Below are positions 7,932 to 57,528 of a stretch of 64,000 nt of DNA, piece by piece. Below the pieces are notes generated by a model. That model had not been told where the DNA came from and did no database searches. It saw nothing but the letters and a program-made list of their open reading frames with translations. The position numbers and the translations under genes were made by a program. The stretch's first letter is position 1. Every line of letters starts with the position of its first letter. The DNA comes from Octopus vulgaris (taxonomy: Eukaryota): contig OX597834.1 in NCBI GenBank assembly GCA_951406725.2, positions 12,400,001-12,464,000 on the forward strand. The letters run 5' to 3'.

Positions 7932-8384
7932 CTGACTTAACATGACGTATGTTTAGCCAGTCGGCATGATATAATTTTTAATTTCGCTTCTTCATTTCTG
8001 CTACCATTTACTCAAAAAAAGGCGCATATCTGCCTTAATTCAAAGACAAGATACCCAGAGAACTTCTTTTACCGTAAAGTATACTAGCCATCTGAATGTG
8101 GCTAGCCACAGGGGGTGGGTATTACTGACGCTTTTAGCCCCAGGAGATCGTCGTCTCCAGCTGACTTAACATGTATGTTTAGCCAGTCGGCATGATATAA
8201 TTTTTAATTCGCTTCTTCATTTCTGCTACCATTTACTCAAAAAAGGCGCATATCTGCCTTAATTCAAAGACAAGATACCCAGAGAACTTCTTTTACCGTA
8301 AAGTATACTAGCCATCTGAATGTGGCTAGCCACAGGGGGTGGGTGTTACTGACGCTTTTAGCCCCAGGAGATCGTCGTCTCCAG
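7932..8384. repeat. Tandem duplication of about 229 bp (flank plus left arm of the fold-back element)
   Basis: ctgacttaacatg... begins at 7932 and again at 8161; the copies are nearly identical. Confidence 0.93.
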
Positions 8385-8676
8385 CTGGCTTTAGACACAA
8401 CTTCTGATATTTGCAAAGGGAGGTCATACCCTCTCGAAAACCTAAGTGATACATACGGACTATAGTTTCGAGGTTTTTGCCTCTCGTCAACGTATGGTAA
8501 ACACCGGTTTTCGATAAAGGAGACCTGTTTGCAAAGCCAGCTGGAGACGACGATCTCCGGGGGCTAAAAGCGTCAGTAACACCCACCCCCAGTGGCTAGC
8601 CACATTCAGATGGCTAGTACACTTTACGTTGTCGAGCGGTTACTGTTTACATCTCGTTCGGAGATTTATTAATGCT
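8298..8676. mobile_element. Fold-back element family H1, copy 1: about 95-bp inverted arms, central hammerhead, about 50-bp one-sided tail
   Basis: Arms 8298-8392 and 8533-8627; 10-bp TSD ttcttttacc at 8288-8297 and 8677-8686; homologous to 57093-57528. Confidence 0.9.
8452..8496 (-). ncRNA. Minimal type I hammerhead ribozyme motif
   Basis: Minus strand: CATACG-TTGACGA-GAGG caaaaa CCTC-GAAA-CTATAG-TC-CGTATG; helix III ACTATAGT is palindromic; C3 is U. Confidence 0.8.
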
Positions 8677-9211
8677 TTCTTTTACCATGTTTGTATTAAC
8701 TGCAATTATTTTAAAGCATGGTTTTAATTACGTGGAAGTACGTATATCCCTTTAAGCTAACTCCATTGAATACGACATCACGTTATAAATATACATAACT
8801 GTGTACGTATACATGTTGTGCATATACATGTGTGTGATTGTGTGTGTTTATATACTAGTAAGGTGAATTTATGTTATAATTTCTGAAAGTTTATCTCTTG
8901 GAAAGGAGCTGATATTTACAACAGAATCAAAACTCCATCGCTGGAAATTAAAGAACAAAATCGATATTTTTTACATGTTGAACTTTAGATAACCGCTTCA
9001 TAATATCACTATTCTGATTACAGCTATTTCTAAGTGCACGTTAGGTGATTACTTTTTTATTGCCAGCTTTTCAAAATCACGACTTAGACATTTATTAACG
9101 TAACCAGGTACGCCAACATCATTTCTGATATTGATATATACAGGTAAGTATTACACTTCGGAGAAGATACCCAATAAAATATGTTTCCGCACTGATTGCA
9201 TTTTTTTTTTT

Positions 9212-9600
9212 TTTTACTTGTTTCAGTCACGTGACTGTGGCCATGCTGGAGCACCGCCTTTAGTCGAGCAACTCGAACCCCGGGACTTATTCTTTTGTAA
9301 GCCCAGTACTTATTCTATCGGTCTCTTTTGCCGAACCGCTAAGTGACGGGGACGTAAACACACCAACATCGGTTTTCAAGCAATGCTAGAGGGACAAACA
9401 CAGACACACAAACACACATATATATATATAAATACATATATACGACGGGCTTCTTTCAGTTTCCGTCTACCAAATCCACTCACAAGGCATTGGTCGACCC
9501 GGGGCTATAGCAGAAGACACTTGCCCAAGATGCCACGCAGTGGGACTGAACCCGGAACCATGTGGTTGGTAAGCAAGCTACTTACCACACAGCCACTCCT
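9212..9600 (-). mobile_element. Family-A SINE, full length
   Basis: High similarity to other family-A copies. Confidence 0.92.
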
Positions 9601-10049
9601 TTGTATACCTATAAGTTTTTAGTCACACAAGTGGATAGTTAATCATAGTTATGATTATATTTCTACATTTTTGTGTATGTACTTATTAAATTCTAATATT
9701 CTGAAATACCTGACATATTTTCACATTGCTTTTAATAGCATGAAGCAGAAAATTTCTTAACAAGACGTAGTCGTACTTGTTATCTTAGGCCCACTTTCTC
9801 AGCGTTGGTGCTGCGAAACCTAATTAAGTATAACGTAATTAAATGCTTGCAATAATTATAGTTAAGAATCTAAAGCTTCAGTGATTGTGGAGTAAATGCA
9901 GGATTCTCATTAGTACTCTATAGATAAATTTTGTACGCATTTACCCACTTAGACATTTATCTGCAAATATATAGATACGCACATACATGCATATATACGT
10001 ACATGTATATAGATAAATATACACAAATGCATTCATACATATACACACA

Positions 10050-10083
<34 letters not shown>

Positions 10084-10223
10084 TCCATACATAACATACA
10101 TATACACATATTATATATATACATCTATACATATGCATTCATATATAACATACATATATTATATATACACATATACACATTCATATATATAACATACATA
10201 TATTATATATACATTCATATATA

Positions 10224-10259
<36 letters not shown>

Positions 10260-10264
10260 CATAC

Positions 10265-10305
<41 letters not shown>

Positions 10306-10310
10306 TATAT

Positions 10311-10485
10311 GTAGAAAAATACAAACTGGGACAAGAACGTAAAACATTTAGAAGACGATGCAAAAAACACGGACGGGACATTCGAAACCTTCAATCTTCA
10401 GTCAAGAACAAGATCATCCTAACAATTTCGGCTGATTAATCTTGAGATCGCTCCGATCCGGCCAGCCCTAAGGAAAAACTAATCT
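10311..10485. mobile_element. Short non-repetitive insert within a (TA)n tract, probable TA-targeting repeat fragment
   Basis: Complex sequence bounded on both sides by TA/TC microsatellite. Confidence 0.4.
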
Positions 10486-11278
10486 CTCTCTCTATATATA
10501 TATATATATTTATACACATATGCATTCTTACATAACATGCATATATATATATATACACGTATAAATATGCAAATATGTGTGTATAAATATGCAAATATGT
10601 GTGTATATTTATATATATATATATATTCATATACAGATATATACATGTATGTTTATATACCTTTCTATCTCTTACACCTTCTTTCTCTCCGTCTGTGTGT
10701 GTATACATATACATGTATGTATGTGTGTATGTGTTTGTGACTGTGTGTGTGTGTGTACATAGGGATTAAATAATCAAAAGGATAGTTAATAACAGACAAT
10801 GTACGGCCGATTGTATAGATAGACTGATTATAACAGAGATGATTGCTCCTATGGATAGCTACAATATTTGCTACGGAGTCGGTTGTATGAAAAACAAAGA
10901 AGCGGGCTCAGCAATGGAAGAATTACGTAAACATATTGTAATCAATAAGGAAATGGATTGAAGGATTGTAATTTTCCTACTTTACGTGCCCGTCGGTTTG
11001 TTTTCTGTATCAATGGAACAAGAGATGATTACACTCACACAGAAACACACACATACACCAACATGCATATGCACGCATATATATGTATGTATATAATAGT
11101 TGACCGTATTGTATGATTTTCTAAATGTATGTACACACACGCACACACATACGTATATACATGTATACACACACACACACACACATACAAAGCGAGAGGG
11201 TGAAAGAGAAAATTATAGACATACATATATATGTGTGTTTGTGTGTGTGTGTGTGTGTGTGTCTATATGCGTACTTAC

Positions 11279-11326
<48 letters not shown>

Positions 11327-11888
11327 TTAAATTGATAGATAGATAGATAGATAGATATATAGATAGATATATAGATAGATAGATAAATAGATATAAGCAT
11401 ATACATGTGTGTTTATTTATACACACACAAACACAGATAAATACAAATGACATATAAAGAAGAATATCTCATAAAAGTGAATGGTTAAATGTTAGAAATG
11501 GGCGGACGGACGGACAGACGGACAGATGAATGGATGGATGGATTGGCAGCCGTATAAAAGCATGAATGAAGTAATAAATGGATGCATGGTGGTACGATGG
11601 TACTGAAAGAATTATGGCTGTGCATATATGCATATCCATGAACAGGAAAAGAAAAGCAGAGCAGAAGTTATATTGGTAAAGAGTGAGAGTTCGATAATCG
11701 ATAGACGCATGTAGGGGTTACGTGATGTCAGTATGAATAACATTCACACACTAGGTCAATAAGAATTGAATAAAGAAATCTTTTTATGGATTACTGCTTT
11801 TGTTGGTTGTGTTTAATTCCACGTTAGACCTGGCTGAGACGATGTTTGGTGCAAGACATTCTAATCATTAAGACGTGTTTATCTAGGC

Positions 11889-12023
11889 CAGTGCTTCCCA
11901 ACATGGGGGTGGGGGTGGAACCCGATATAAAGAATATAGAATGGGTTCCGTGGGAAAACGTATTTAAATACAAAGGATGGGAACCTCTGTTGCAAAGCAC
12001 AGTGGAAAGATTGGGAACCACTG
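11889..12023. mobile_element. hAT (Charlie-like) MITE
   Basis: TIRs CAGTGCTTCCCAA / TTGGGAACCACTG; 8-bp TSD atctaggc / atcaaggc. Confidence 0.8.
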
Positions 12024-12244
12024 ATCAAGGCTGTCCCCTATTTCAATCGTAGCCATTCGTCTTTATAAAAAGCGTTTTATGATCTATAGGAGATCATAGA
12101 ATTTGAACATCCACCATCAATCCTGCTCTGCATGTTAGCACATAAAACCAATACTTTTGATATATTACCATATTTACATACACACACACACACACACACA
12201 CATATGTGTGTGTGTGTGTGTGTATAGTGGCACACATATAACAA

Positions 12245-12418
12245 TCTCCATGATAGATCGGTAGCCACTACACACATTTTTCTTCTCTCCTTGTTTCTTT
12301 TTCTGTGTCCCTTTCTGTTGAAGAGCGTAGGCTCGAAACGTAAAATCCTTTTTCAGTTCCTGAGCGTTATACTAATATTTCTCTTTGTTTTCTACTCCAC
12401 CTGTCTTCGTCTTTTGTA
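12245..12418 (+). mobile_element. Family H5 short repeat with hammerhead-like motif (12311-12345)
   Basis: CTTT-CTGTTGA-A-GAGC gtag GCTC-GAAA-CG-TA-AAA; reverse-complement copies at 42634-42813 and 47478-47650. Confidence 0.7.
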
Positions 12419-12486
12419 ACAGCTTTTGTTATATTTTAAGCGGCTTTTAAATAAAGCATATAACTATGTCTGGTTTTTGAGTACTA

Positions 12487-12870
12487 GTGGAGGCGCAATG
12501 GCCCAGTGGTTGGGCAGCGGACTCGCGGTCATAGGATCGCGGTTTCGATTCCCAGACCGGGCGTTGTGAGTGTTTATTGAGCGAAAACACCTAAAGCTCC
12601 ACGAGGCTCCGGCAGGGGGTGGTGGTGATCCCTGCTGTACTCTTTCACCACAACTTTATCTCACTCTTACTTCCTGTTTCTGTTGTACCTTGTATTTCAA
12701 AGGGCCGGCCTTGTCACTCTCTGTGTCACGCTGAATATCCCCGAGAACTACGTTAAGGGTACACGTGTCTGTGGAGTGCTCAGCCACTTACACGTTAATT
12801 TCACGAGCAGGCTGTTCCGTTGATTCGGATCAACCGGAACCCTCGTCGTCGTAACCGACGGAGTGCTTCC
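12487..12870 (+). mobile_element. Family-C tRNA-derived SINE, full length
   Basis: A box tggcccagtgg, B box gtttcgattcc; near-identical copies at 51968-52350 and 58097-58467. Confidence 0.92.
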
Positions 12871-12927
12871 ATCCATCATTTGAGTACTCTTTCTTCCACC
12901 TTGTTTCACATTCATGAGCCTACTCCA

Positions 12928-12993
<66 letters not shown>

Positions 12994-13526
12994 GTAAGGG
13001 TCGCTTAGGAACAAAGTAAAGTTAAATTTTAATATCCATCGAGATTTTCCGATAGTACTTCAGAGATTCAATTTCTCATCAATTAATATTAATCTAAAGT
13101 TTTAATTTACATTTCTCCTTATTAGATTTCTTCATTATATTCTATGGCCTTGTGTTACGTGACGTATTTTTTTCATCTTCCATTCTACTCATCGCATCCA
13201 ATCGCCCACAAACTTCTCTCTCTCTCTTTGTTTCTGTCATTCTCAGCCTCTTTCTCGCCATTTCTTTCACTCTCATTTCATCTATACTTGAATCATCAAG
13301 TTTCGTAATATTGCATCTTTTTATTCTATTAATTTTCTATGGTTTTTTTATCGACTTCGTGTTTTTCACTTACATTTTGTGTATCAAATAACTTTAGGAG
13401 CAGGTAATTAGAACTGCATTAGGTTTCTTGTGTACATATTTGGTATTTGGTGACAGAAAAACATTATACAGCACTTGAATGAACATATGTGTGTATATAT
13501 AATTGTATATAATGATGTATATATTT

Positions 13527-13905
13527 ATAATGTACATGTATGTATATATATAATGCATATGTATGTATGTATGTATATATATATATATATAATGCATATG
13601 TATGTATATATATATATATATATATAATGCATATGTATGTATATATATATATATATATATATATAATGCATATGTATATATATATATATATAATGCATAT
13701 GTATGTATATATATAATGCATATGTATGTATATATATAATGCATATGTATGTATATATATATATATATAATGCATATGTATGTATATATATATAATGCAT
13801 ATGTATGTATATATATATATATAATAATGCATATGTATGTATATATATATATAATGCATATATATATATATATATATATATAATGCATATGTATGTATAT
13901 ATATA
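13527..13905. repeat. Compound minisatellite (TA)n-ATGCATATGTATG
   Basis: Repeated taatgcatatgtatg units separated by variable TA runs. Confidence 0.9.
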
Positions 13906-14245
13906 TACATAAATATGCATTTATATATGTATATATATATATGCATTTATATATGTATATATATATATATATATATAAATATGTATGTATATTAGTGTGT
14001 TTGTCCGTATATATGCATATATGTACACATAGTTACATGCATATATATACCTATGTATGTAAATCTTTATATAATTCATACGCATACACATGCATACACA
14101 TTCACAGACGCAAAATCCTACATACGCATATTTGCATTTCATGCATTAAACTTAGAGAAAATATCTTTGACACGCCCCCTCTCGTGTCCTCATTTCATTA
14201 AGAGAATGTTTGTTGTGTACATGTATAGATACATGTATGCATATG

Positions 14246-14279
<34 letters not shown>

Positions 14280-14926
14280 CTGGCTTAAAAGTCGTCCCAC
14301 GGGGCGGCCTAATATTAAATTTGACCAATATTTTTAAAGCAATGAACAATTTTCGTCAAACAATGATAAAATATGTGGACTTGGGAATTATGCCAAAGTT
14401 TCATGATAAACAATTTTTTTCTTCCCATTCGGGGATCAGTACAATATTTTTTTGTCTAACCTCTTTTCTCTCTACTTCTCTCTTTCTGTTGATTGCTTTC
14501 AACCATCACCAGTATCACCACCATCGCCACTACAACTGCCATTCGCACAACATACACATTTCTCATGCCTCCACCATCAATACATTTGACTTCGCCACTT
14601 TCTCCTCCAACATCATCACCACTGTCTTTCACATCCCTTATTATCACCGTCACGTTTGACCGCCTCAGCTACCATCACAACCAGTCACCACCATCGTCTT
14701 GGCCTCCCCAGCAAGAGGAGTAGAAGAAGTATCATTCAGAGAGGCGGGCGGGGTTAAAGTGTGACACACTGACACACAGAATTTCATCTTGGCACTTATG
14801 ATCTATATATATATATATACATACATAGAGAGAAAGGTTCATAGATACATAGGTAGACACACACATATATATATATATATATATACACATAGAGAGAGAG
14901 AAAGATTCATAGATACATAGGTAGAC

Positions 14927-14977
<51 letters not shown>

Positions 14978-15052
14978 TATATAGATATAGATTCATAGGT
15001 AGACATATCTAGATATACATACATATATTATATATATATATATGCACAAACA

Positions 15053-15102
<50 letters not shown>

Positions 15103-15873
15103 TGTCCATATTCTATATATGTATGTGTGTGTATAGGCGTACACATATATTTACAAATACGTGTAAACGTATATACCTGCACATATAGGTTTTAATTATT
15201 TATTTGAAGTATTACTAAGAGGAGTTGTCTGGAATGTTTTCAACAAGTACACCAATGCAACTCTTGTTGTTCATGAAACATATATAATAAGGAATAATGT
15301 CATTGGCCGGATTATGTAATTAATCTGCAAAACGTATCTTCTAGTACTTAACACTTTTGTCCACTATTTTCAAATCTCATATAAATAATAAATAATAGCA
15401 TCTTCACAGCACCGGAATAAACATATATGCTTCATGGAGACACACCTTGGATTATAAGCCCCATCTACACACATACATACTCAGAGAAACACGTACACAC
15501 AACCAACGACTCACACTTATTCACACACACATACACTCACACACACAGAAACATGTATACACTCACAAACACTGATTCACACATACATACACACACTTAT
15601 ACTCTCACACGCACAAACATGCAAGTATATAGACACGCAAGCACATAGACACACATACACATATATATACACATATACACGCATACACATATATATACAT
15701 ATATACGCACACACATATATATACACATATATATACATATATACGCACACATATATATATATATACACACACACATATATACACACATACACAGACACAC
15801 ATATATACACACATACACACATATATATACACACACACACACACACATATATATATACACACACACATATACT

Positions 15874-15908
<35 letters not shown>

Positions 15909-17132: not shown

Positions 17133-17345
17133 TGTTTCTTTACTACCCACAAGGGGGCTAAACATAGAGGGGACAAACAAGGACAGAGAAACGAATTAAG
17201 ACGATTACATCGACCTCAGTGCTTAACTGGTACTTAATTTATCGACCCCGAAAGGATGAAAGGCAAAGTCGACCTCAGAACGTAACGGCAGACGAAATAC
17301 GGCTACGCATTTCGCCCGGCGTGCTAACGTTTCTGCCAGATCGCT
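17133..17345 (-). mobile_element. Family-B SINE with small internal deletion
   Basis: Matches the 26.5-27.4 kb array unit plus head. Confidence 0.85.
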
Positions 17346-17749
17346 ACCTGTATACTTTGTTCATGAATTAGCGTAGAACTTACCGAGCATTTCACAAATG
17401 CATGCACCATTAACAGAATTCAGCATGATACAGTGTGTGAGAAGGCTGCAACGAATAATCTCTCAGTATTTTATACAGATTAAATTTCCCCTGTTATTTA
17501 CCGAGAAAATCGATTAGAACTTTTTCTAATGGAATTTCTCTCTTTCTTCTACCATTAAAACAGCCAGTGGTTTAGAAGCTGTTTTCTGACGGGGTGGGGT
17601 GAGGAAATTTCCATATAGTTGGAGGCTCCTATAGAAAACGGGGACCTGAAATGATCAGGTTGATAAACGCTGGTATAGATTATGCCTAACCGAAAACGAT
17701 CACAGAAACATCATCCAAATAGACCGCGTGAAACCGGGATTAGCTGCTA

Positions 17750-17799
<50 letters not shown>

Positions 17800-20198: not shown

Positions 20199-20253
<55 letters not shown>

Positions 20254-20256
<3 letters not shown>

Positions 20257-20700
20257 TCGCCATATTAATATGGCAGTCTATAAATATAAGACTACAGCTG
20301 TCGCTGATTAGCTCCAAGAGGCCATCGCCTCTAGCTAGCTATATGACACACGAACCGGCGTCCATTACAACCTTCGAACAGGGGAGGTCAGCCGCTTCAC
20401 CTTGCTAGTCAGACATCTGCAGACATGTTTCAAGGTTGTTGCCCTTTATCAATGCAGCGTAGTCAGAACCAGCAGGTGTCGCTACTGACCGTCTGTTCGA
20501 AGATTTTATTTACCTGTTTGAAGGTTATAATGGACGCAGGTTCGGGTGTCATATAGCTAGCTAGAGGCGATGGCCTCTTGGAGCTAATAAGCGACAGCTT
20601 TAGTCTTATATTTATAGACTGCCATATTAGTATGGTGATAACTATTAATATCCAGTAACGCTGCCGTAATCTCCTTTAGAGAGACTTAGAAATTTTAATA
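20254..20700. mobile_element. Fold-back element family H2: about 129-bp inverted arms, central hammerhead, one-sided tail
   Basis: Arms 20254-20382 and 20513-20641; imperfect inner stem; lies between (TA)n tracts. Confidence 0.88.
20417..20457 (-). ncRNA. Minimal type I hammerhead motif, U3-A8 variant
   Basis: Minus strand: CTGCA-TTGATAA-AGGG caacaa CCTT-GAAA-CATG-TC-TGCAG; helix III ACATGT is palindromic. Confidence 0.75.
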
Positions 20701-20711
20701 TTTCCATTATA

Positions 20712-23159: not shown

Positions 23160-23760
23160 TAAGAATCGTTAGCATGCTGGGCGAAATGCTTAGCGAATTT
23201 TCACACATCGCTGAGTTCCGAATTAAAATTCCGCCGAGGTCGACATTGCCTTTCATCCTTTGGCGTCGATAAATTAAGTACCAGTTGCGTACTGAGGTTG
23301 ATGTAATCTACAGCCTCCCTTTCCCCGAAATTTCAGGCCTTGTGGCAATATTAGAAAGGATTATTTATAAACCTATAGCAGAATCGTTAGCACACCGGGC
23401 GAAATGATTAGCAGTAGTTCAGCAGCCGCTACGTTCTGAGTTCAAATTCCGCCGAGGTCGACTTTGCCTGTCGATTAAATAAGTTCCAGTTACGCACTGG
23501 GGTCGATGTAATCGACTTAATCCGTGTGTCTGCCCTTGTTTGTCCCGTCTGTATTTAGCCCCTTGTGGGTAGTAAAGAAATAGGTATTTCACCCATCGCT
23601 ACATTCTGAGTTCAAATTCTGCTAGGGTCGACTTCGTCTTTTATCCTTTTGGGGTCGATAAATTAAGTACCAGTTTAACACGTGGATTAATGTAATCGAT
23701 TAGTCCCTCTACTCTAGAATTTCAGGCCTTTTGCGTATAGTAGAAAGTATTATTGATAAT
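23160..23760 (+). mobile_element. Cluster/tandem of three family-B SINE units
   Basis: Three successive gagttc..ggtcgac..cagtt cores. Confidence 0.8.
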
Positions 23761-26265: not shown

Positions 26266-27455
26266 AAGGCGGCGAGCTGGCAGAAACGTTGCGTTCTGAG
26301 TTCAAATTCCGCCGTGGTCGACTTTGCCTTTCATCCATTCGGGGTCGATAAATAAAGTACCAGTTACGCAGTAGGGTCAATGTAATCGACTTAATCCCTT
26401 TGTCTGTTCTTGTTTTGCCTGTTTATGTTTAATAAAAAAATAAGAAACGTTAACTCAGAACGTTCTGAATTTGAACTCAGAACGTAACGGCAGACGAAAT
26501 ACCTATTTCTTTACTAACCACAAGGGGCTGAACACAGAGAGGACAAACAAGGAGAGACAAACGGATTAAGTCGATTATATCGACCGCATTGCGTAACTGG
26601 TAGTTATTTAAACGACCCCGAAAGGATGAAAGGCAAAGTCGACGTCGGCGGAATTTGAACTCAGAACGTAACCGCAGACGAAATACCTATTTCTTTACTA
26701 ACCACAAGGGGCTAAACACAGAGAGGACAAACAAGGAGAGACAAACGGATTAAGTCGATTATATCGACCCCCAGTGCGTAACTGGTACTTATTTAATCGA
26801 CCCCGAAAGGATGACAGGCAAAGTCGACCTCGGCGGAATTTGAACTCAGAACGTAACGGCAGACGAAATACCTATTTCGCTAAACACGGAGAGGACAAAC
26901 AAGGAGAGACAAACGGATTAAGTCGATTATATCGACCCCAGTGCGTAACTGGTACTTATTTAATCGACCCCGAAAGGATGACAGGCAAAGTCGACCTGGG
27001 CGGAATTTGAACTCAGAACGTAACCGCAGACGAAATACCTATTTCTTTACTACCCACAGGGGGCTAAACACGGAGAGGATAAAAAAGGAGAGACAAACGG
27101 ATTAAGTCGATTATATCGACCCCAGTGCGTAACTGGTACTTATTTAATCGACCCCGAAAGGATGAAAGGCAAAGTCGACCTCGGCGGAATTTGAACTCAG
27201 AACGTAGCGGCAGACGAACTACCTATTTCTTTACTACCCACAAGGGGCTAAACACAGAGAGGACAAACAAGGAGAGACAAACGGATTAAGTCGATTATAT
27301 TGACCCCAGTGCGTAACTGGTACTTATTTAACCGACCCCGAAAAGATGACAGGCAAAGTCGACCTCGGCGGAATTTGAACTCAGAACGTAACGGCAGACG
27401 AAATACCGCTAAACATTTTATCTGGTGTGCTAATGATTCTGCCAGCTCGCCGCCT
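26266..27455 (-). mobile_element. Tandem array of about 5.5 family-B SINE units (about 184 bp) on -, abutting a + copy at 26266-26450
   Basis: gaactcagaacg recurs at 26473, 26657, 26842, 27009, 27193 and 27377; a single head at about 27400-27455. Confidence 0.93.
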
Positions 27456-31027: not shown

Positions 31028-31585
31028 GTGTATGTGCGTACATGTATGGATATCGTTTTACGTAATTATGTATGTGTGAAATATATTTCTCTGACAATCT
31101 CTTTCTTACCAACGGTTAGCATCTATAGATTCTATTCTCTATGTAATTTTTTTTTACACAACTCCTTAAGTTAATTACACGCTAATGAACAACGAAGCCT
31201 ACTTAAATCAAGAGTACCGCATTTATACGTACACATGTTGTGTATTACGCCGCTTAAAACACGGAAATCATGAAATACATTCGTATATACACCAACTCTA
31301 TATTTTCCATGAAGAAAATTTTTTCCTTCCTCTCTCTCTCGTTTGACATTGACTTTCCTTCTCACTTTATCTTTTTCTCCCTCTATTTATTTCCCCACCT
31401 CTTGCTTATGTCTTCTTGCTTTCATATATTTTTGGGGGAGTTGGTTGGTGGGGGAGGTGGATTATCGAGGTGGGGGGGGGTTGAGTGGGGTGGTGAAAGT
31501 TCCCAAAAGAGTTTGGACATACATTTGCGACCACGCCGATAAGATTAAACGGCAAGTGGTGACAACGACGACGAAGAGGACACCG

Positions 31586-32000
31586 ATGATGGTGATGATG
31601 ATGATGATGACGATGGTGATGGTGATGATGACGATGGTGATGATGACGATGGTGATGATGACGATGGTGATGATGACGATGGTGATGATGACGACGGTGA
31701 TGATGACGACGGTGATGATGACGACGGTGATGATGACGACGGTGATGATGACGACGGTGATGATGACGACGGTGATGATGACGACGGTGATGATGACGAC
31801 GGTGATGATGACGACGGTGATGATGACGACGGTGATGATGACGACGGTGATGATGACGACGGTGATGATGACGACGGTGATGATGACGACGGTGATGATG
31901 ACGACGGTGATGATGACGACGGTGATGATGACGACGGTGATGATGACGACGGTGATGATGACGGTGATGATGACGATGGTGATGATGACGATGGTGATGT
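31586..32000. repeat. 15-bp tandem repeat (GGTGATGATGACGAC)n
   Basis: Directly visible, very homogeneous in its centre. Confidence 0.97.
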
Positions 32001-32099
32001 TGGTGGTAAGGATGACAGTGGAGATGGTGATGAGACTGAAAAAGCGGGTAAAAGTAAGTATAAGCATCGAATGTACATGAAAAGCGGTAGTAGATGTAC

Positions 32100-33033
32100 T
32101 ACTACAGCAAATATCACTACTACTGTTACTACAACTACTGCCAGTGGTAGTTGTAGAAGTAGTAATAGTGAAATGTTGGTGGTGGTGGTAGTAGTAGTAA
32201 TATTAGTAGTAGCAGTAGTAGTATAGTAGTAGTAGTAGTAGTGGTGGTGATGCTGATGGTGGTAGTAATAGTAGTAGTCGTATTAGTAGCAGTAGCAAAA
32301 GTAGTAGTAGTAGTAGTAGTAATATTCGTATTAGTAGCAGTAGTAATAGTAGTAGTAGTGGTGGTGGTGATGCTGGCGGTGGTAGTAGTGATAGTAGTAA
32401 TAGTAGTAGCAGCAGTAATAGTAGCAGTCGTATTAGTAGCAGTAGTAATAGCAGCAGCAGTCGTAGTAGTAGTGGTAATGATGCTGGTATTATTAATTAT
32501 TATTATTGTTACTATTATTATTATTATTATTATTATTATTAGTAGTAGTAGTAGTAGAGGAAGAGCGTTCGATTGTACGTCGATATGTAGTAGAGAGAAA
32601 CCCGGCATGCAGAGGTGGTGGTGGAGGAGGGTTCTGCTCTGGCAGCGGGAGCATCTCACATCGCTACACACAGCCACTAGTGTGCTGCGCTGGTAGTAGA
32701 TTCTGCTGCTGCTAAAACCGATGCTGCCACCATCACTTCCATCATCATCATCACCACCAACACTACTACTAAGAATACTACTACTACTACTAAGAATACT
32801 ACTACTACTACTACTAAGAATACTACTACTACTACTACTGCTGCTGCTGCTGTTGTTATGAATACATAAAAATGTAAGAAATTAAGATTATATCAGTCCA
32901 ATACTAATTTCTGCAGCAATATCCTCAACAGCAGCATTAGTTGTAGTACAAGCAGCAGTAGTTGTAGTGGTGGTAGTGGTGGTGGTAGTGTATGTGGTAA
33001 CAGTAGTACAAGCAACAACAGCTGCAGCAGTAA

Positions 33034-47477: not shown

Positions 47478-47479
<2 letters not shown>

Positions 47480-48065: not shown

Positions 48066-48193
48066 CTGTTGAGTCTGGGAGAGTCATTCTCTTTTAGTGC
48101 CTTATTATTTAACACACTCAGCGGTAAAATTTCCACTTATTTCTTATTTTTATACTCATAAAGAATCTTGCAAACCAAATCCAAAAATGAAAT
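48066..48193. mobile_element. Internally deleted H3 element (left arm joined to tail)
   Basis: Matches 20755-20840, then 21092-21133. Confidence 0.8.
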
Positions 48194-48279
48194 AATATAT
48201 ATATAAACACACACACACACATATATATATACACACATATATAGATACATATATACATATGCAGATATATATATATATT

Positions 48280-48362
<83 letters not shown>

Positions 48363-49709
48363 GGATATGTGCATGTTATCTTATGTTTTATTTTCTTATT
48401 TTTCACTATAAAATAGGTGTTCTGTGAGTCCTTAGGCTAAATAACAAAATACTTGCTCAAGGTAAACGCAGTGGGACTGAACACAGGATTATGTGCTTCA
48501 AAAGCCATCTTCTTACCACACTCCCACCCTGCATAGATGCCAGAGACGTTGTAGAAAAAAGTGCTGTATGGTCACGGATGTAGGCTTTGCTTATAAAATG
48601 TGGCATTCAGTTTTCAGTTGTGGTTCACCTGAGTCTAAACAATGACGGCAATCGACAAGAAAAGCGAAGGAGTCAATAAAATGCCGTGATGTGGCGGGTC
48701 TATTTGGTACAAAAAAATTACTAATAATCTTCAGTTACAATCTATATGCGCAAGTAACAAATAATTCATTGAGAAATTTCGTCATTGCTTTCCATAAACT
48801 ACATTATTTTCGCTGGTGGACAAGCCTTTCGTCACTAGCTTGATTTCTTTTAAAGTAGCAACAACAGCGCCACTTAAAAAAAACATAAATGTGTCTGAAG
48901 TATTATGTACTGTACTACCATTCTCTGTGTGAAATAAATATTGTTTTACGTCTCATAATAAGAGTTGAAGCTTACTGATTTTTATTTCATTAAGAATAAC
49001 ATATTTCACGATGGGGAAACTTAAAAACTGATTGGGAAATAATTACGCGGTAGGGAAAAAAAATTACTAAAAAACAAAAAAAAAAATGACTATTAGCGAC
49101 GGAAGCAGTATTAGTGCCAAAGGGAAATCTTTATAGCCAACTTAACGTGGCTGTCTTCTTCGACAAGACAACCACGTTAAATTAGATATGAAGATTACAT
49201 TTCTTCCGTCGCGGATAATTAATCTTTAATGAGCTTGCTTGGCTATTTGCGATATCAGTGACTGAAAAGAGACTGAATTTCTGTATATTATGGCAACTTG
49301 TTGAAGAGGAGTTGAAGAATGATAGAAGTAGAAGAGGAATGTGATACGGGCTTCTGAGATACTCTGAGCTATTTAACAGTCAAGAGAGACTCTTGCTGTC
49401 CCCACCGAGAAAACAAAGAATTCATAGTCCCCAATACTCATCTTTTACCGCAGTGTTTCTCAAACAAAGATCCTAGTGATGTCCCCGGGGGGCGGGGGGG
49501 CTGCCATTGAGGATGTGTACTAAACTGAGGTAGCGTTTTTTGGAAGTTCCGACACCTACAACAGACGATTCTCCGCTGCTATGATTTATTTCTGTTTCCA
49601 TGCACCATGCGACTATACGACAGGACGACTCAGGGTTAAAAGCAACATTCAGCGTTCTAACGAGTCGTTAGATATAAAAATATTAATTATTATTATTTTG
49701 ATTACATCT

Positions 49710-50246
49710 AAGGCAACGAGCTAGCAGAATCGTTAGCACGCTGGACAAAATGCTTTGCAGTATTTCGCTTGTTGTTACGTTCTGAGTTCAAATTCCGCAG
49801 AGGTCGACTTTGTCTTTCATCTTTTTTGGGGCCGATAAATTAAGTACACGTATTGGGGTCGATATGATAGCCTTAACCCCTCCCCGCAATTTTCAGGTCT
49901 TGTGCTTATAGTAGCAAGTATTATTTTAATTAGATCTTTAACAAAAGGATGACGGTTGTCTGTGAAATATAGCCATAACGAAAGATACTCAAGAATTAGT
50001 AATGGGAGAATCATTATATATTTCTTTACTACTCCACAAGGGTCTAAACACAGAGGGGACAAACAAGGACAGAGAAACGGATTAATTTGATTACATCGAC
50101 ACCAGTGTGTAACTGGTACTTAATTTATCGACCCCGAAAGGATGAAAGGCAAAGTCGACCGCGGCGAAATTTGAACTCGGAACGTAACGACATACGAAAT
50201 ACGGCTACGCATTTCGCCCGGCGTGCTAACGTTTCTGCCAGCTCGC
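49710..50246. mobile_element. Convergent pair of family-B SINEs (49710-49920 +, 50020-50246 -)
   Basis: Family-B motifs in both orientations. Confidence 0.85.
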
Positions 50247-51434
50247 AACATGCATACGAGCGGCCTTATTTTCGTAAAGTGCTCTACTGTTGTATGTATC
50301 TATTTATTTATTTATTTATTTTGAATGAGAAAAAGTTGGCTGTCCCTCTCTCGAAATTTCATTTTCTATATAAAATGAAAGAAAAACGCTCACAATGCCC
50401 CACCGTAGTTTTGTTTTCAGAGCAACGGAAGAGATTCCGACAGATTTAAGCACACACACAGACACACAAACACAAGCACACATTCGCAAAGAAAAACAAA
50501 TGTCAATAATTGAATGTTATTGTTTATCGACCTTGATAAGATAAAAAGCAAAGCATACATCGTTACAGGTTGAACTACCAGCGAAAAGAACCAGCGAAAT
50601 ACAACGTAAAGCAATCTGGGACTTCTGTTCTCGTAGGCGAAGAAAAACAAGAATGTTTTGATAATAAATTAGACGGAAATACGATCATTAAGTGAGTATT
50701 AAAACAAAAACGCATGCTTTTGCAACTTTTAATTCCGACTTCTATTTTTAACAGGTTAAAAGGTGGGAGATTGTACAGCTCTTTGACAAGTTTTAAAGAT
50801 TTCGAGACGAGTGCTAAGAATGAAGTTGTTCTGAAATCGGAGATATGTCACGAATTTTTTACGAAAGAATAAAAATCTCTTATTTCAGAAATGATCAACC
50901 GTGATGTTAAATATTCCCACGATTCTAGTTTACCATTAATTCTTCTTAATTTTCACTAAAGGCACAAGTGCTGTTGTAGTTTACCATTAATGAAAAGAAA
51001 TACAATTTCATTCAAGCTTTCCAAGCTGTTTCCATGTTTCACAATTTTGCCCAGAACGGTTTTCGCAGCTAGAACTATAGTATAAAACATTAGTTTCTAA
51101 TTTTGTCACAAAGCCAGCAATTTCGGGAGAGGGCTCAAGTCATTTAAATCACCCCCCCGTGTTTAAGAGGTATTTATGTTATCGATGCCGAAAGGATAAA
51201 AAGCAATGTCAACTTCGGTGTCCATTTTCTGAGTCCCCGAAGACGGACGAAATGCCGCTATGCTTTTTGTTCGCTATGCTCACCGCCTTAATATGGTATG
51301 GCACAGTGGCATGAATTATTTGCTCAATATGCCGATTAGTAAAATCGAACTACGCACCATTTGTCTCTGAGGTGAAGCCGTTTACCACTTAGCTATGCTT
51401 ATACCAACAAAAAAAGAAAATGAAAAAATGTTAG

Positions 51435-51598
51435 TGGTGGCTGTGTGGTAAGTAGCTTGATTACCAACCACATGGTTCCGGGTTCATTCCCACTTCATGG
51501 CACCTTGGGTAAATGTCTTCTACTATAGCCTCGGGCCGACCAAAGCCTTGGGAGTGGATTTGGTAGACGGAAACTGAAAGAAGCCCGTCGTATATATG

Positions 51599-51634
<36 letters not shown>

Positions 51635-51842
51635 CGTGTTTGTGTGTCTGTGTTTGTCCCCCTAGCATTTCTTGACAACCGATGCTGGTGTGTTTACGTC
51701 CCCGTAACTTAGCGGTTCGGTAAAAGAGACCGATAGAATAAGTACTAGGCTTACAAAGAATAAGTCCTGGGGTCGATTTTCTCGACTAAAAGATGGTGCT
51801 CCAGCATGGTCACAGTCAAATGACTGATACAAGTAAAAGAAT
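51435..51842 (+). mobile_element. Family-A SINE, full length
   Basis: A box tggctgtgtgg, B box ggttcattcc, CORE-like caccttgggtaa. Confidence 0.92.
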
Positions 51843-51967
51843 AATAGTTGTCTTTATATTTTGTTTAGTTTTATGGTTATTTTTAATGTGAAGATGGACA
51901 TCTCCATATCAAAGTGTGAGGCGTGAACCTCTTTCATTCGTTGTCTTGTCATATTTCAGTAGTAGTA

Positions 51968-52350
51968 GAAGCACTCCGTCGGTTACGACGACGAGGGTTC
52001 CGGTTGATCCGATCAACGGAACAGCCCGCTCGTGAAATTAACGTCTAAGTGGCTGAGCACTCCACAGACACGTGTACTCTTAACGCAGTTCTCGGGGATA
52101 TTCAGCGTGACACAGAGAGTGACAAGGCCGGCCCTTTGAAATACAGGTACAACAGAAACAGGAAGTAAGAGTGAGAGAAAGTTGTGGTGAAAGTGTACAG
52201 CAGGGATCGCCACCATCCCCTGCCGGTGCCTCGTGGAGCTTTAGGTGTTTTCGCTCAATAAACACTCACAACGCCCGGTCTGGGAATCGAAATCGCGATC
52301 CTACGACCGCGAGTCCGCTGCCCTAACCACTGGGCCATTGCGCCTCCACT
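51968..52350 (-). mobile_element. Family-C SINE, full length
   Basis: Reverse complement of 12487-12870. Confidence 0.92.
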
Positions 52351-52843
52351 GTCATATTTTATTTTCTTATTAAAAAGATAAATGCGCCCTTTTGTTTCCT
52401 TTCCCATTTCAACCATAAACATCTCATATGTTATGATATTCCGCCGTGGTCGACTTTGCCTTTCATCCTTTCGGGGTCGATTAAATAAGTACCAGTTATT
52501 CACTGGAGTCGGTAAAATCGACTTAATCCGCTTGTCTGTCTTTGTTTGTCCTCTCTGTGTTTAGCCCCTTTTGTGTAGTAAAGAAATAGAAATAGATATT
52601 GTTCTATGTATACTACAGTACAGGTGTGCGTTAGCTTTTGTAGACAGGATAGATGCCGTTCAAAGTAAATATTTATCTCAACATCTTAATATAGTATAGT
52701 CGCAGGCGTGGAAGTGTGATAAGAAGTTCGCTTCTCAACCATATGCTTCCCGGTTCAGTCCATGGAGTTGACTCATCACCTTGGGCCGACGACAGTGTTG
52801 TTAGTGGATTTGGTCGACGGAAACTGAAAGAAACCTGTGTTTG

Positions 52844-52868
<25 letters not shown>

Positions 52869-52874
<6 letters not shown>

Positions 52875-53168
52875 AAGAATGGGATATCTGACTCGCTAGA
52901 AAGAGCAGTTAAAACTCTAAGCCACCAATTGCAGGGTCTAGGATTAAGGTAAAATTTTTTATTTTCCAATCACTTTCGGAATTACAACAATTGGTGGCTT
53001 TGAGTTTTAACTGCTCTTTCTAGCGAGTCAGATATCCTATTCTTCGGGTATCTCTGTGTTTCAATGCACACTGTATTCTTCTCTGAATAATGTATTGTCT
53101 ATTGACTGGTAACTAAGAATTTTTCGATGAATATTCTTGCTACCATAAGATTTTAATTAATGATAATA
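52869..53168. mobile_element. Fold-back element (about 63-bp arms plus about 115-bp tail) inside the TA tract of a family-A SINE
   Basis: Arms 52869-52931 and 52988-53050; SINE halves at about 52703-52840 and 53200-53325. Confidence 0.8.
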
Positions 53169-53986
53169 TATATATTATATACTATACATACACGTAACTG
53201 TGTGTCTGTGTGTACTGTATCTGAATTTGTTTCCCAGTACCGCTTGCCAACAGGTATTTCTGTGTTTAAGTCCACGTACTTAGCGGTTCGGCAAAAGAAA
53301 CCAATTGTATAACTACTAGACTTAAAAAACAAAAATTAATGACTTGATGGAACACGACAAATAGGTAAGACGAACTATGTTCAAGTACTGTCTGCCTCTG
53401 TATGTGTTATGGGCGAATCTTGTACAACCCCACGTGACCGAAAGAGGGCGAACGGATTTCGATAAAGAACTCTGTTGTGAACTATCGAGGGTATTGGACA
53501 GTGTTAATCGACTGTTTTGTCCACTGTGTAAGTTCAACGTGTGTTGGTTTAATATCGTACGTACGCTGGAGTAGTACGGAATAAGTTCTGTGTGAACATA
53601 ATAATTCTGCGATCGGTTATTTTAAATAAACCACAATCTAAATCTATATTTGTGTGAAGCTAATTTACACCCGACGTGTACACCCACGTTATAACAGTAT
53701 ATACATATGTGTGTATGTGTTTTGCGCTTTGTTGCCCGCAACAGCTTGACAGAGTTGTTTTGTGTACGTCTTCGTAGCCTAGCATTTCGAAATTACAGAC
53801 AGTATATGCACCCGACTGTAAACTATTTAAATACTGAGTCCCTTCATTCGACAATTTTAATTGAGTGGTTATTGCATTAAGATTAAGAGTGATTCTCTAT
53901 CTGTAATATATAGCTGGCTATTCGCCCTCAGGTCATAGCTTATTGACTCTGAAACAAAAAAATGACGCAGGAATCACGCAATAATA

Positions 53987-54542
53987 CAGGGTCAGGCAAA
54001 ATGATCTGACACATTTGTAGGTTAAATAAAAGGCATTGTTTTTCGTTTCTTTTTCAGTTGCTGCCATGAATTGGACTGGTGAGCATCGCGCTTTCATTGT
54101 GGAAACGCTTATCAAAACAAACGATTCTGTAACTGCAACACAAAGAGCGTTCCGTTTGCACTTCAATCTTGGTAGACATGATCCCGTACCAGCTCGAAAC
54201 ACGATCTTGTTATGGGTTACCAACTTCAGAGCTACTGGATCTGCATTGAAACGAAAATCAACCGGCCGACCTCGCACCGCCAGAACTTAAAGATGCAATT
54301 CGTCAAGAAATTACTGCCATTCCACATGAAATGACCCGCCGAGTTATTGACAACTTTCGTGAACGCCTTCGACAGTGTGTGGACAATAATGGATCCCATT
54401 TGACTGATTTAATTTTTAAAACATAATGAAACAAAATGGCATTATATGTACTTTTCAAAATTAAAAACACTTTTTTGTTTCTTTACTTCATTTGCCTTTT
54501 ATTTAACCTACAAATGTGTCAGATCATTTTGTCTGACGCTTG
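53987..54542 (+). mobile_element. Internally deleted Tc1/mariner-superfamily element
   Basis: About 50-bp TIRs (CAGGGTCAGGCAAAATGATCTGACACATTTGTAGG...) preceded by TA; N-terminal HTH (MNWTGEHRAFIVE...TGRPRT) joined out of frame to the C-terminus (ELKDAIRQEI...RLRQCVDNNGSHL); DDE domain missing. Confidence 0.88.
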
Positions 54543-54788
54543 TCCTCCAAAAATGACAAAAAGTGTCACGGCTGGACTAAATCTGAATATAGAAGTACTA
54601 GATCAAGGCTATTTTTGACTTAAACAATTTACCATATAATTTACCACAAGGAATTCGAACTGGTAACTAATTTTAGTCGCTAGGCAACACATTACTCATA
54701 GGTTACGACATCATATATCATAGCTGTTATTCAGTGAGTTGTAACAATTTCTTATCTATTGCCAAGACGCTAGGGATTAACAATTCAT

Positions 54789-54820
<32 letters not shown>

Positions 54821-55059
54821 GATATATATGTAAAATGAAAATCCTGCCTAGGTGATAAGAGACTGGTCAGTCATGTTGAAAGTGGTGATGAAATGTCGGA
54901 TATGGCCAAACATCAAAGCGGAATAGTCTTATCAACCATATTTGATAAACTACCTTGTTGCATCCTTACAATCAAAGGTTAAATGAAGACACTACTTATA
55001 ATATATACACATTTCCATATAGATTAATACTGACATGATATTAGACGCTTTATGTGTGC

Positions 55060-55097
<38 letters not shown>

Positions 55098-55214
55098 GTA
55101 CAGCTTCACACATTGAAAACTCACATGTGCACACTCTTGCATAGAAACACACAGGTGCATAAGCATGCCATGTACATACATGCACACACATATATATCAT
55201 TATTAGTGTGTGTG

Positions 55215-55282
<68 letters not shown>

Positions 55283-56789
55283 TGTATAAAAAACACATAC
55301 ATACACACAAAGTACGTAACAGACACGCATACATATATGCTTGTCAGTAGCGTAAAATAGTTGCAAGGCATCTTTTGGTAGTTTACTCTATGTATACATA
55401 TTCAGGTGTATAGATATCAACCTATATATGTCGATATGAATGTATGTGTGTATAAACATACATATATGCACATTCATAACGCCGTATTTCATGTCTAGAA
55501 ACGATTGTCTAGATATTTAAAAGTACATGTAATAAAGTATGAAACTTTTCCCCATAACTAGTCTCAGCTATCGCAATTTCGATCTCAGAGAACATTCTGT
55601 TACTTTATTAGAAATAACAACAAATTCTAAACCATGTCTCATCTCACAGTCTTCGAAGTAGAGAACACTCTTCTTTGTGTAATCCAAGATAGACTACGCA
55701 AAAGCACAAAATGATAGAACAGTATGATTAGATTATAGGTATGGTCCTTCAGGGCAGACCTAATAATAGGAACAGGGGTACATTGAATCGTGTGTTTCTG
55801 GTCAGGAAGAGATTTGGGGGTCGTAGATGAATTGTCAAGTTGATCAGACATTGAAGGAGCATGGCTTGGTGGTTAGGGAATTCGTCTCAAGATTGTAAAG
55901 TCGTGATTTCGATTCCCGGCGGCACAATGTCTCCTTGAGCAAGACACTTTATTTCAAATTGGTCCAGCTCACTCAACTGGCAATAATGAGATGTACCTGT
56001 AATTCAAAGGGCCAAAATTATTACATTCTGTGTCACGCAGAATCTCCCCGAGATCTCAGTGTTTTCAGTTTTGCTGAAGATACAAGACTGCGAGCTGGCA
56101 GAATCGATAGCACACCGGGCAAAATTCTTAGCAGCATTTTGTTAGTATATGTTTGGAGTTGAAATTGCACCGAGTTCGACTTTGTCTTTCATACATTCAA
56201 GGTCAATAAAGTAAGTACCAGTTGAGTTCTGATGTCAATGTAATCGAATTACTCGTTCCCCCAAATTTGCTGGCCTTGTGCCAAAATTTGCAACCATTGT
56301 TTGCTGAAAATATAAAGGTGAGTACTTCTCCAACTCTAATGACAAATGCTTGACAAGGAAACGAGACATACACAATATGTGTAAAGACTGGTTTACCGAT
56401 ATAAAATAGGTCTCTGATAAAGAGATTTGCATGCACGTGCTACCAGCAATGATTCCATTGCACGGAGCCTTGAACATGTGCCTTCTACTCTTGTGCCTGC
56501 CTGAGCAACGAGACATGATTCCCAAACTCTTTAAGTAGGAGTCCGTTGGTATAAGCAAGGCTAAGTGATTAACGGCTTCACCTCAGAGACAAATGGGACC
56601 TGGTTCGATTTTACTAAACGGCATATTGAGCAAATAATTCATGCCACTGTGCCATACCATAGTAAGGCGGTGAGCATAGCGAGCAAAAATCATAGCGGCA
56701 TTTCGTCCGTCTTCAGGGACCATGCATGAATATGCGTGTATATAAAACACGCACTTCCACTATTTCTGTTTGTGTGTGTGTGTGATCGA

Positions 56790-57095
56790 ACGACAAACCT
56801 ATCAATTAACCGATTGAAAGAACCACCGTTCAAAGTCGATGTTCATTTAAACGAACCCAACAGCAGAATAAAGGACAATTAATTCATTTTAAATTTTATT
56901 GCATAATTTATTGACTTTGAGCACCATCGGGGTCAGAATTGAAAATGTTGACGAGGACCAATCGCGACCTGGGCTAAATTTAACTAACCCCCTACACTCA
57001 CGACTATTAGCCTCTCTCTTAACTTTGCAACAATTATTTATTTCACTTGCTAATAGTTTATAGGGCAATTAATATATAATATTATTGATGTTGTA
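56790..57095 (+). repeat. Old local direct duplication with 60745-61150
   Basis: gacaaacctatcaa..aaaggacaatta..aggaccaatcgcgacctgg..tttcacttgcta are collinear in both copies. Confidence 0.85.
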
Positions 57096-57528
57096 AAGTG
57101 TACTAGCCATCTGAATGTGGCTAGCCACTGGGGGTGGGGTGTTACTGACGCTTTTAGCCCCAGGAGATCGACGTCTCCAGCTGGCCTTAGACACAATTTC
57201 AGTTGCTGGGAAAAACGTTAAATATTATTTGCAAAGGTCTCCTTCATCGAAAACCAGTGTTTACCATGCGATGACGAGAGGCAATTACCTTGAAACTATA
57301 GTCCGTATGTATCACTTAGGTTTTCGAGGGAGGATGACCTCCCTTTGCAAATAACACAAGGGCACTGAAATTGTGTCTAAGGCCAGCTGGAGACGTCGAT
57401 TTCCTGGGGCTAAAAGTGTCAGTAACAACCCACCCCCAGTGGCTAGCCACATTCAGATGGCTAGTACACTTTACGTTGTCGAGCGGTTACTGTTTATATC
57501 TCGTTCGGAGATTTATTAATGCTCCTAA
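57093..57528. mobile_element. Fold-back element family H1, copy 2 (central cassette inverted relative to copy 1)
   Basis: Arms 57093-57203 and 57364-57474; 13-bp TSD tattgatgttgta at 57083-57095 and 57529-57541. Confidence 0.9.
57265..57309 (+). ncRNA. Minimal type I hammerhead motif (degenerate at position 3)
   Basis: CATGCG-ATGACGA-GAGG caatta CCTT-GAAA-CTATAG-TC-CGTATG. Confidence 0.7.

What the first reader, a model, noticed from the sequence alone, without database searches (positions are those of the whole stretch)
8298..57528. Hammerhead-capped fold-back element present as flip and flop isomers
Seen: the copies at 8298-8676 and 57093-57528 share long inverted arms and the same one-sided tail (gttgtcgagcggttactg...attaatgct) on the right. 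The about 120-bp centre between two TTTGCAAA palindromes is inverted between them, so the hammerhead is on - in one and on + in the other. The centre is itself an imperfect stem (TCGAAAACC/GGTTTTCGA, AGTG/CACT), so the element folds into one rod with the ribozyme at its tip. TSDs are 10 and 13 bp, which fits target-primed insertion rather than a DNA-transposon MITE. Established: minimal hammerheads and inverted terminal structures occur in Penelope-like elements, and flip/flop ends mark hairpin-transfer replication. Inference: this is a non-coding, ribozyme-processed hairpin retroelement whose copying produces both isomers.
Basis: partly seen in the sequence, partly recalled or inferred. Interest (0 to 1): 0.9.

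Follow-up and report, generated by a model that had tools for sequence, protein, structure and literature searches.

The report
Penelope-type hammerhead retrozyme, head-to-head insertions
The two copies belong to a family of 353-base non-coding repeats with a predicted hammerhead ribozyme, likely copied by Penelope-type retrotransposon enzymes; they are back-to-back pairs of truncated copies joined at variable points, not two flip/flop forms of one hairpin.

Summary
The sequence observation is largely right, but the flip/flop reading is wrong. Both copies derive from a ~353-bp tandem unit that carries a type I hammerhead; an 18-mer of it has 409 exact genomic hits (control 0). Each "fold-back" is two 5'-truncated copies joined head to head. 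In 124 mapped insertions, 58 are inverted and 66 direct or tandem. Junctions scatter along the whole unit: 9 of 120 ends lie near the TTTGCAAA palindromes, 11.9 expected. In 21 of 50 single-tail inversions both arms carry a hammerhead. Fixed 3' ends, a one-sided ~44-50 bp tail, 9-14 bp TSDs (mode 12) and AT-rich targets match the published Penelope-like element (PLE) signature. Unit size, GC and ribozyme fit non-LTR retrozymes. Sister sub-families (58-72% alike) keep the stems by compensatory changes. One result goes beyond classification: 50 of 58 inverted insertions have exactly one tail and none has two, and in 26 of 52 neither arm contains the other. This favours two coordinated primings over a single fold-back. 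No autonomous partner was found. Cleavage is untested, and this sub-family has U (copy 2: A) at core position 3.

The parts
8288..8297 (+). Copy 1 left TSD (10 bp)
8298..8535 (-). Copy 1 long arm: 5'-truncated unit (positions ~107-353), carries the centre and hammerhead, no tail
   Evidence: L061
8452..8496 (-). Copy 1 type I hammerhead, U at core position 3; predicted cut between 8458 and 8457
8536..8627 (+). Copy 1 short arm: unit positions 261-353; junction with the long arm at 8535/8536 with 2-3 nt microhomology
8628..8676 (+). Copy 1 tail = first ~49 nt of the next tandem unit (to 8679 if the TSD overlap is counted)
8677..8686 (+). Copy 1 right TSD (first 3 nt also match the tail)
7940..8167 (+). 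Local tandem duplication (~228 bp, left edge approximate) of the left flank plus the first ~92 bp of copy 1; likely post-insertion
   Evidence: (8026-8167 matches at 98.6%)
57083..57095 (+). Copy 2 left TSD (13 bp; last 3 nt overlap the element)
57093..57203 (-). Copy 2 short arm: unit positions 243-353, no hammerhead, no tail
   Evidence: L001
57202..57474 (+). Copy 2 long arm: unit positions 81-353, carries the centre; 2 nt overlap at the junction
57265..57309 (+). Copy 2 type I hammerhead, A at core position 3 (likely dead); predicted cut after 57303
57475..57523 (+). Copy 2 tail (unit positions 1-49)
57529..57541 (+). Copy 2 right TSD, preceded by 5 non-family bases
20244..20710 (.). Third, distantly related insertion in the window: head-to-head arms, one tail (right), hammerhead on - at about 20418-20458 with the U3-A8 core, between TA repeats
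   Evidence: (E 6e-7)

Best explanation
This is a dispersed family of ~353-bp non-coding tandem units with a predicted type I hammerhead (a non-LTR retrozyme), likely copied into AT-rich DNA by the reverse transcriptase-endonuclease of a Penelope-like element, and the two window copies are head-to-head pairs of 5'-truncated units whose junctions fall at different places. Shown: unit structure, two preferred 3' end sites (unit end and tail end), scattered 5' ends, TSDs, one tail per inversion, and arms more alike within than between insertions. Inferred: the endonuclease makes a staggered cut about 12 nt apart. Each DNA 3' end primes its own cDNA on a multimeric or circular RNA, one from the unit-end start site and the other from the tail-end site ~44-50 nt downstream. 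The two cDNAs stop at random and are joined 5'-to-5', often with 1-3 nt microhomology. Whichever arm runs further carries the hammerhead, which gives the apparent flip or flop. The hammerhead would cut mainly as a dimer of tandem units, through its palindromic stem III.
For: Unit of 353 nt in tandem arrays; 47 arms exceed one unit plus tail. Of 182 outer 3' ends, 100 stop at the unit end and 66 at a tail end; tail ends peak at 44 and 49-50. 5' ends spread over positions 1-325. Junction ends near palindromes: 9 of 120 against 11.9 expected, both near in 1 of 60. Hammerhead on the tail arm only 11, other arm only 17, both 21, neither complete 1, of 50. One tail in 50 of 58 inversions, two tails in 0; P = 8e-9 against independent arms. 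Sister sub-families: 23 of 24 simple inversions have one tail, 0 have two. Neither arm nested in the other in 26 of 52, copy 1 included. Arms of one insertion differ by a median 2.2% against 7.2% between insertions, closer in 45 of 45. Non-simple TSDs of 9 bp or more in 28 of 130 insertions, 27 of them 9-14 bp, mode 12; null 3 of 400. 19 sequences from the sub-families: 95% of cells paired, 7 of 19 pairs with double changes, stem III palindrome kept in 19 of 19. Literature: PLE inverted 5'-truncated copies and one-sided tail (PMC8557442, PMC3846280); two internal RT start sites, both strands cut and extended (PMC11167929); 350-390 bp mussel retrozymes (PMC7229834).
Against: No autonomous PLE sharing these ends was found in 66 loci (65 around GIY-YIG hits) or in 8 more loci of another PLE clade. 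The one promising hit (L187) is a separate small insertion about 600 bp beyond the PLE's end. The core has U3 opposite G8 in 131 of 151 copies, C3 in 3, and the first pair of stem II is unpaired in 10 of 19 sequences, so activity may be weak. 5' ends do not cluster at the cut site. Arm similarity could also come from later gene conversion between arms. In 21 of 52 inversions the tailless arm is nested in the tail arm, which a fold-back would also give. The sample was chosen by the presence of the hammerhead region, and the sister sub-family loci were partly hand-picked for multiple hits.
Confidence: 0.8

Rival explanations
1. Same family, but the inverted form arises when one cDNA folds back or self-primes and copies itself (a hairpin intermediate), as proposed for PLEs on an antisense template.
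For: Arms of one insertion are closely alike. 21 of 52 tailless arms are nested in the tail arm and 2 the other way round. Self-priming is proposed in PMC3846280 (passages).
Against: In 26 of 52 inversions, copy 1 among them, each arm holds sequence that the other lacks, so one arm cannot be a plain copy of the other. It would need an extra template switch back to RNA.
Confidence: 0.12
2. One reading: one hairpin element whose centre flips between two TTTGCAAA palindromes by hairpin-transfer replication, giving two isomers.
For: The two window copies have opposite centres with the tail on the same side, and copy 1's junction does fall at a palindrome.
Against: Junctions are not enriched at the palindromes. 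66 of 124 insertions are direct or tandem, and 21 of 50 have a hammerhead on both arms. The 5' palindrome varies within the family and differs in sister sub-families.
Confidence: 0.02
3. A foldback or MITE-type DNA transposon that happens to contain a hammerhead-like sequence.
For: Long inverted arms in the window copies; TSD lengths cluster at 12.
Against: Arms vary from tens to about 1,000 bp and are truncated copies of one unit. There is a one-sided tail, and tandem arrays occur. The stems covary on the RNA strand.
Confidence: 0.02
4. The units are solo pseudo-LTRs shed from an autonomous PLE not yet sampled, rather than a self-standing retrozyme lineage.
For: Retrozymes are reported to be related to PLE pLTRs in Xenopus (10.64898/2026.07.22.740005, passages). 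The genome holds PLE ORFs with RT and GIY-YIG domains.
Against: Tail runs seamlessly into the next unit in the tandem arrays. No shared longer 5' extension was seen among 69 direct insertions apart from one segmental repeat. Sub-families 58-72% alike are collinear over the whole ~353 nt.
Confidence: 0.04

Closest known systems
Metazoan non-LTR retrozymes (PMC7229834; mussel 350-390 bp, axolotl 331/353 bp)
   Same: 150-450 bp non-coding unit, type I hammerhead with short palindromic stem III, GC 0.41-0.47, tandem copies, TSD longer than 4 bp, highly paired predicted RNA.
   Different: Here arrays are short (1-3 units per arm) and dispersed, and about half of the sampled insertions are head-to-head inversions with a PLE tail. 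'inverted' has 0 hits in that paper's main text. U3-G8 core in this sub-family. Circular RNA not shown here.
EN+ Penelope-like elements (Penelope/Poseidon; PMC8557442, PMC3846280, PMC11167929)
   Same: 5' truncation, partial tandems, inverted 5'-truncated copy, tail at one end, 8-10 bp TSDs reported, AT-rich or microsatellite targets, hammerhead in the terminal repeat.
   Different: No ORF. The tail is ~44-50 bp rather than 30-40 bp and the TSD mode is 12. No sequence match to the sampled autonomous PLEs of this genome.
L1 twin-priming inversions (name and mechanism recalled; only the search listing of PMC2837659 seen)
   Same: Two primings from the two target ends, joined internally with microhomology, TSD-flanked.
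   Different: In L1 the two parts are non-overlapping stretches of one RNA. Here both arms include the same 3' end, so they form long inverted repeats.
Flip/flop terminal hairpins of parvoviruses (recalled, no call)
   Same: An internal segment is seen in both orientations between inverted arms.
   Different: Flip/flop has two fixed isomers with fixed boundaries; here the boundaries are scattered and many more arrangements occur.

Membership tests
non-LTR retrozyme | 150-450 bp repeat unit with a type I hammerhead | tested here: met
   352-359 nt in 19 of 21 cut-to-cut units; structure counts
non-LTR retrozyme | Tandem head-to-tail copies | tested here: met
   47 arms longer than one unit plus tail
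non-LTR retrozyme | Non-coding, GC below 50% | tested here: met
   GC 0.41-0.47; none of the 61 window ORFs of 120 codons or more overlaps either copy
non-LTR retrozyme | TSD longer than 4 bp | tested here: met
   9-14 bp in 27 of 28 non-simple TSDs, from 130 insertions
non-LTR retrozyme | Self-cleavage in vitro | not testable with these tools
   U3 in 131 of 151 copies leaves activity open
non-LTR retrozyme | Expressed as unit-length linear and circular RNA | not testable with these tools
   only assembled contigs of runs of unconfirmed type were available
type I hammerhead | Stems I, II, III around the conserved core | tested here: met
   stem I 99%, stem II 87%, stem III 100% of cells paired; slid controls 20-52%
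type I hammerhead | C3-G8 (or U3-A8) core pair | tested here: not met
   this sub-family U3-G8, copy 2 A3; sister sub-families have C3-G8, and the distant one U3-A8
PLE-mobilised element | 5'-truncated, partial tandem and head-to-head inverted insertions | tested here: met
PLE-mobilised element | Optional tail at one end only | tested here: met
   66 tails among 182 outer 3' ends; 50 of 58 inversions with one, 0 with two
PLE-mobilised element | Ends shared with an autonomous PLE | tested here: inconclusive
   none in 74 sampled loci; 150 of 6,136 and 150 of 17,178 candidates were scored
autonomous PLE | ORF with RT and GIY-YIG endonuclease | tested here: not met
   353-nt non-coding unit
flip/flop hairpin element | Two isomers with fixed inversion boundaries | tested here: not met
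MITE / foldback DNA transposon | Constant terminal inverted repeats with symmetric ends | tested here: not met
   asymmetric ends, 66 of 124 without inversion

The most novel reading that the evidence does not exclude
A retrozyme clade that inserts with the complete Penelope signature, in which every inverted insertion is made by a coordinated pair of primings: one target strand always starts at the unit-end site and the other at the tail-end site of the same RNA species. This one-tail rule (73 of 82 simple inversions with one tail, none with two) would be genomic evidence for how a PLE dimer uses its two RT start sites, and direct evidence that retrozymes move by PLE machinery.
Probability: 0.5. 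Interest if true: 0.6.

Novelty: new member of a known kind. Interest (0 to 1): 0.4.

Why it matters
The flip/flop system does not exist, but the family is useful. How PLEs make their inverted ends and one-sided tail is described as undefined (PMC8557442), and the PLE-retrozyme link rests on co-occurrence and pLTR similarity (10.64898/2026.07.22.740005). These short elements give many complete insertions in which both ends, the junction and the TSD can be read at once. A near-identical young sub-family with a canonical core offers a ready substrate for cleavage, circularisation and trans-mobilisation assays.

Tried and rejected
Rfam scan of the window: 0 matches. L187 as autonomous partner: rejected, the 69-83% match is a separate insertion in a TA repeat beyond the PLE's own inverted end. 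Profile search of PLE loci: only separate small insertions, none in 9 loci of a second clade. Shared 5' flanks among 69 direct insertions: only one ~1,385-bp segmental repeat. Expression: no RNA holder listed; four runs guessed to be RNA were contigs only and cannot show ends, strand or level, so they are not used as evidence. One search had stem I mis-registered by one column and is superseded. The junction positions of about five inversions (L004, L044, L070, L094, L122) are unreliable because short fragments were missed. Six segmental duplicates were dropped before the final counts (130 to 124); searches dropped only one of them for the inversion counts, and one search dropped none. No tally of stem III variants over the 2,137 pattern hits was made, so the palindrome evidence rests on 19 sequences. 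Insertions of the distant sub-family were not mapped beyond the window copy and L189. Earlier-findings look-ups returned nothing. Repbase and Dfam were not available, and paper supplements were not read, so the family may already sit in a repeat library.
Full report
OBSERVATION. Both copies are present. Arms, shared right tail, opposite centres and TSDs of 10 and 13 bp check out, each TSD with 3 nt that could belong to the element. The centre folds as a rod on the ribozyme strand (z -6.2 and -5.9); it is the extended stem I of a type I hammerhead. The flipped segment is not bounded by the two TTTGCAAA sites: copy 1 joins at 8535/8536 and copy 2 at 57202-57203. The genome is 2.8 Gb in 227 contigs. 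It looks octopus-like to me from recall of size and repeat content; no call named it.

THE REAL UNIT. An 18-mer of the hammerhead has 409 exact hits, control 0. Mapping 150 fetched loci on one genomic unit (L027, 353 nt) shows tandem units in which the 'tail' is simply the first ~44-50 nt of the next unit. These gave 130 insertions, 124 after dropping six segmental duplicates: 66 direct or tandem and 58 head-to-head. Loci came from best hits to the two centres and from the first 100 of the 409 pattern hits, so all were selected for holding the hammerhead region. Of 182 outer 3' ends, 100 stop at the unit end, 66 at a tail end and 16 elsewhere; the 182 5' ends spread over positions 1-325. Copies diverge from the family majority by a median 4.5% (184 segments).

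FLIP/FLOP TEST. Junction ends near either palindrome: 9 of 120 against 11.9 expected; both ends near in 1 of 60. Among 50 single-tail inversions the hammerhead is on the tail arm only in 11 (like copy 2), on the other arm only in 17 (like copy 1), on both in 21 and complete on neither in 1. Orientation therefore depends only on which arm is long enough. Two fixed isomers do not exist.

INSERTION SIGNATURE. Non-simple TSDs of 9 bp or more were found in 28 of 130 insertions (9: 4, 10: 4, 11: 3, 12: 11, 13: 3, 14: 2, 19: 1), against 3 of 400 shuffled flank pairs. Many other insertions sit in TA repeats, where a TSD cannot be measured. PLEs are described with partial tandems, an adjacent inverted 5'-truncated copy and a 30-40 bp tail often at one end only (PMC8557442, passages). 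Rotifer PLEs show this with 8-10 bp TSDs (PMC3846280, passages). A purified PLE protein cuts and extends both strands of AT-rich DNA and starts at two internal RNA sites that bracket the tail; hammerhead cleavage was not needed for insertion (PMC11167929, parts 1-2 of 4).

MECHANISM OF THE INVERSION. Exactly one tail in 50 of 58 inversions, none in 8, two in 0; independent arms could give at most 50% single tails (P = 8e-9). In sister sub-families, 23 of 24 simple inversions have one tail and none has two, among 49 loci tallied, partly hand-picked. Arms of one insertion are closer to each other than to other arms in 45 of 45 (2.2% against 7.2%); this fits one template species, though gene conversion is not excluded. 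In 26 of 52 neither arm contains the other, 21 have the tailless arm nested, 2 the reverse and 3 are unclear. A plain fold-back of one cDNA cannot make the 26. Two primings, one from each target end at different start sites, make all of them. That step is inference. The template must be multimeric or circular: 171 of 323 segments cross the cut site, and only 3 of 182 5' ends lie near it (6.2 expected).

RIBOZYME. A generalised pattern gives 2,137 hits, control 1. At least four sub-families are collinear over ~353 nt; three of them were compared pairwise at about 58-76% identity, and the fourth matches at 69-74%. One is 98-100% uniform and has a canonical core. Over 19 sequences, 95% of cells pair, 7 of 19 pairs show double changes, and the stem III palindrome is kept in all 19; slid controls give 20-52% (related sequences can beat the shuffle control, so the slid control matters more). 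A palindromic short stem III is the described mark of dimer-acting hammerheads (PMC4209133, parts 1-2 of 4). Against activity: U3 opposite G8 in 131 of 151 copies and A3 in copy 2. The section read in PMC3088659 reports U3-A8 as the natural covariant and does not mention U3-G8. A full unit folds with z -4.4.

PARTNER. The genome has intact-looking PLE ORFs (781-residue frames; RT and GIY-YIG by Pfam), some with their own hammerhead-like motifs and inverted ends. None of 74 sampled loci shares ends with the small elements. The partner is unidentified.

KNOWN OR NEW. Unit size, GC, hammerhead type, tandem copies and TSD fit non-LTR retrozymes (PMC7229834, passages and parts 2-3 of 6). A 2026 preprint argues that these derive from PLEs (10.64898/2026.07.22.740005, part 1 of 5 and passages; 'tail' 0 hits). 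Opposite-strand hammerhead pairs 100-700 bp apart were already noted in Schistosoma (PMC4209133). An octopus repeat annotation has 0 hits for 'ribozyme' in its main text (PMC13282606, passages; supplements not seen). Six searches listed no paper on this family or with a tail-per-inversion count. The library is incomplete and repeat databases were not searchable.

VERDICT. New member of a known kind: a retrozyme that works like a non-autonomous PLE; cleavage, circular RNA and partner are untested or not found. Flip/flop is refuted. Interest 0.4, carried mainly by the one-tail rule.

Noticed in passing
window 20244-20710; L189:1440-1990: Distant ~360-bp sub-family with a U3-A8 hammerhead; the window copy is also head-to-head with one (longer) tail. 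3,054 first-look candidates in the genome.
   Followed up: partly
window ~7940-8167: Tandem duplication of ~228 bp that copies the left flank and the first ~92 bp of copy 1, with short microhomology at the joint.
   Followed up: partly
L226-L230, L241-L244: Very young sub-family (units 98-100% alike, canonical core, arrays of up to three units), the best candidate for current activity of these small elements.
   Followed up: partly
L181-L186, L195 (e.g. L183:2042-4384; L184:768-2204): Young PLE family with many 781-residue RT-GIY-YIG frames; in L184 an upstream 479-residue frame overlaps it, suggesting a two-ORF or frameshift arrangement. A U3-A8 minimal hammerhead lies near its 3' end.
   Followed up: no
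L187:1826-4975: 5'-truncated PLE with its own 3' end inverted upstream, inside a TA repeat: the same head-to-head architecture in a coding element.
   Followed up: partly
L267:~320-400 (minus strand): Second PLE clade (17,178 first-look candidates, frames up to ~1,090 residues) with a canonical-core hammerhead, very long stem II and palindromic stem III about 45 nt from its 3' end.
   Followed up: no
L150 (G000:C1:94320500-94329000): Four ~1,385-bp tandem segments, each holding the same truncated copy with identical flank: a segmental repeat, not four insertions.
   Followed up: yes
window 26401-27420, 23470-23699, 63057-63539: A ~184-bp tandem repeat family present in several places and both orientations; also a 15-bp minisatellite at about 31440-32144.
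   Followed up: no
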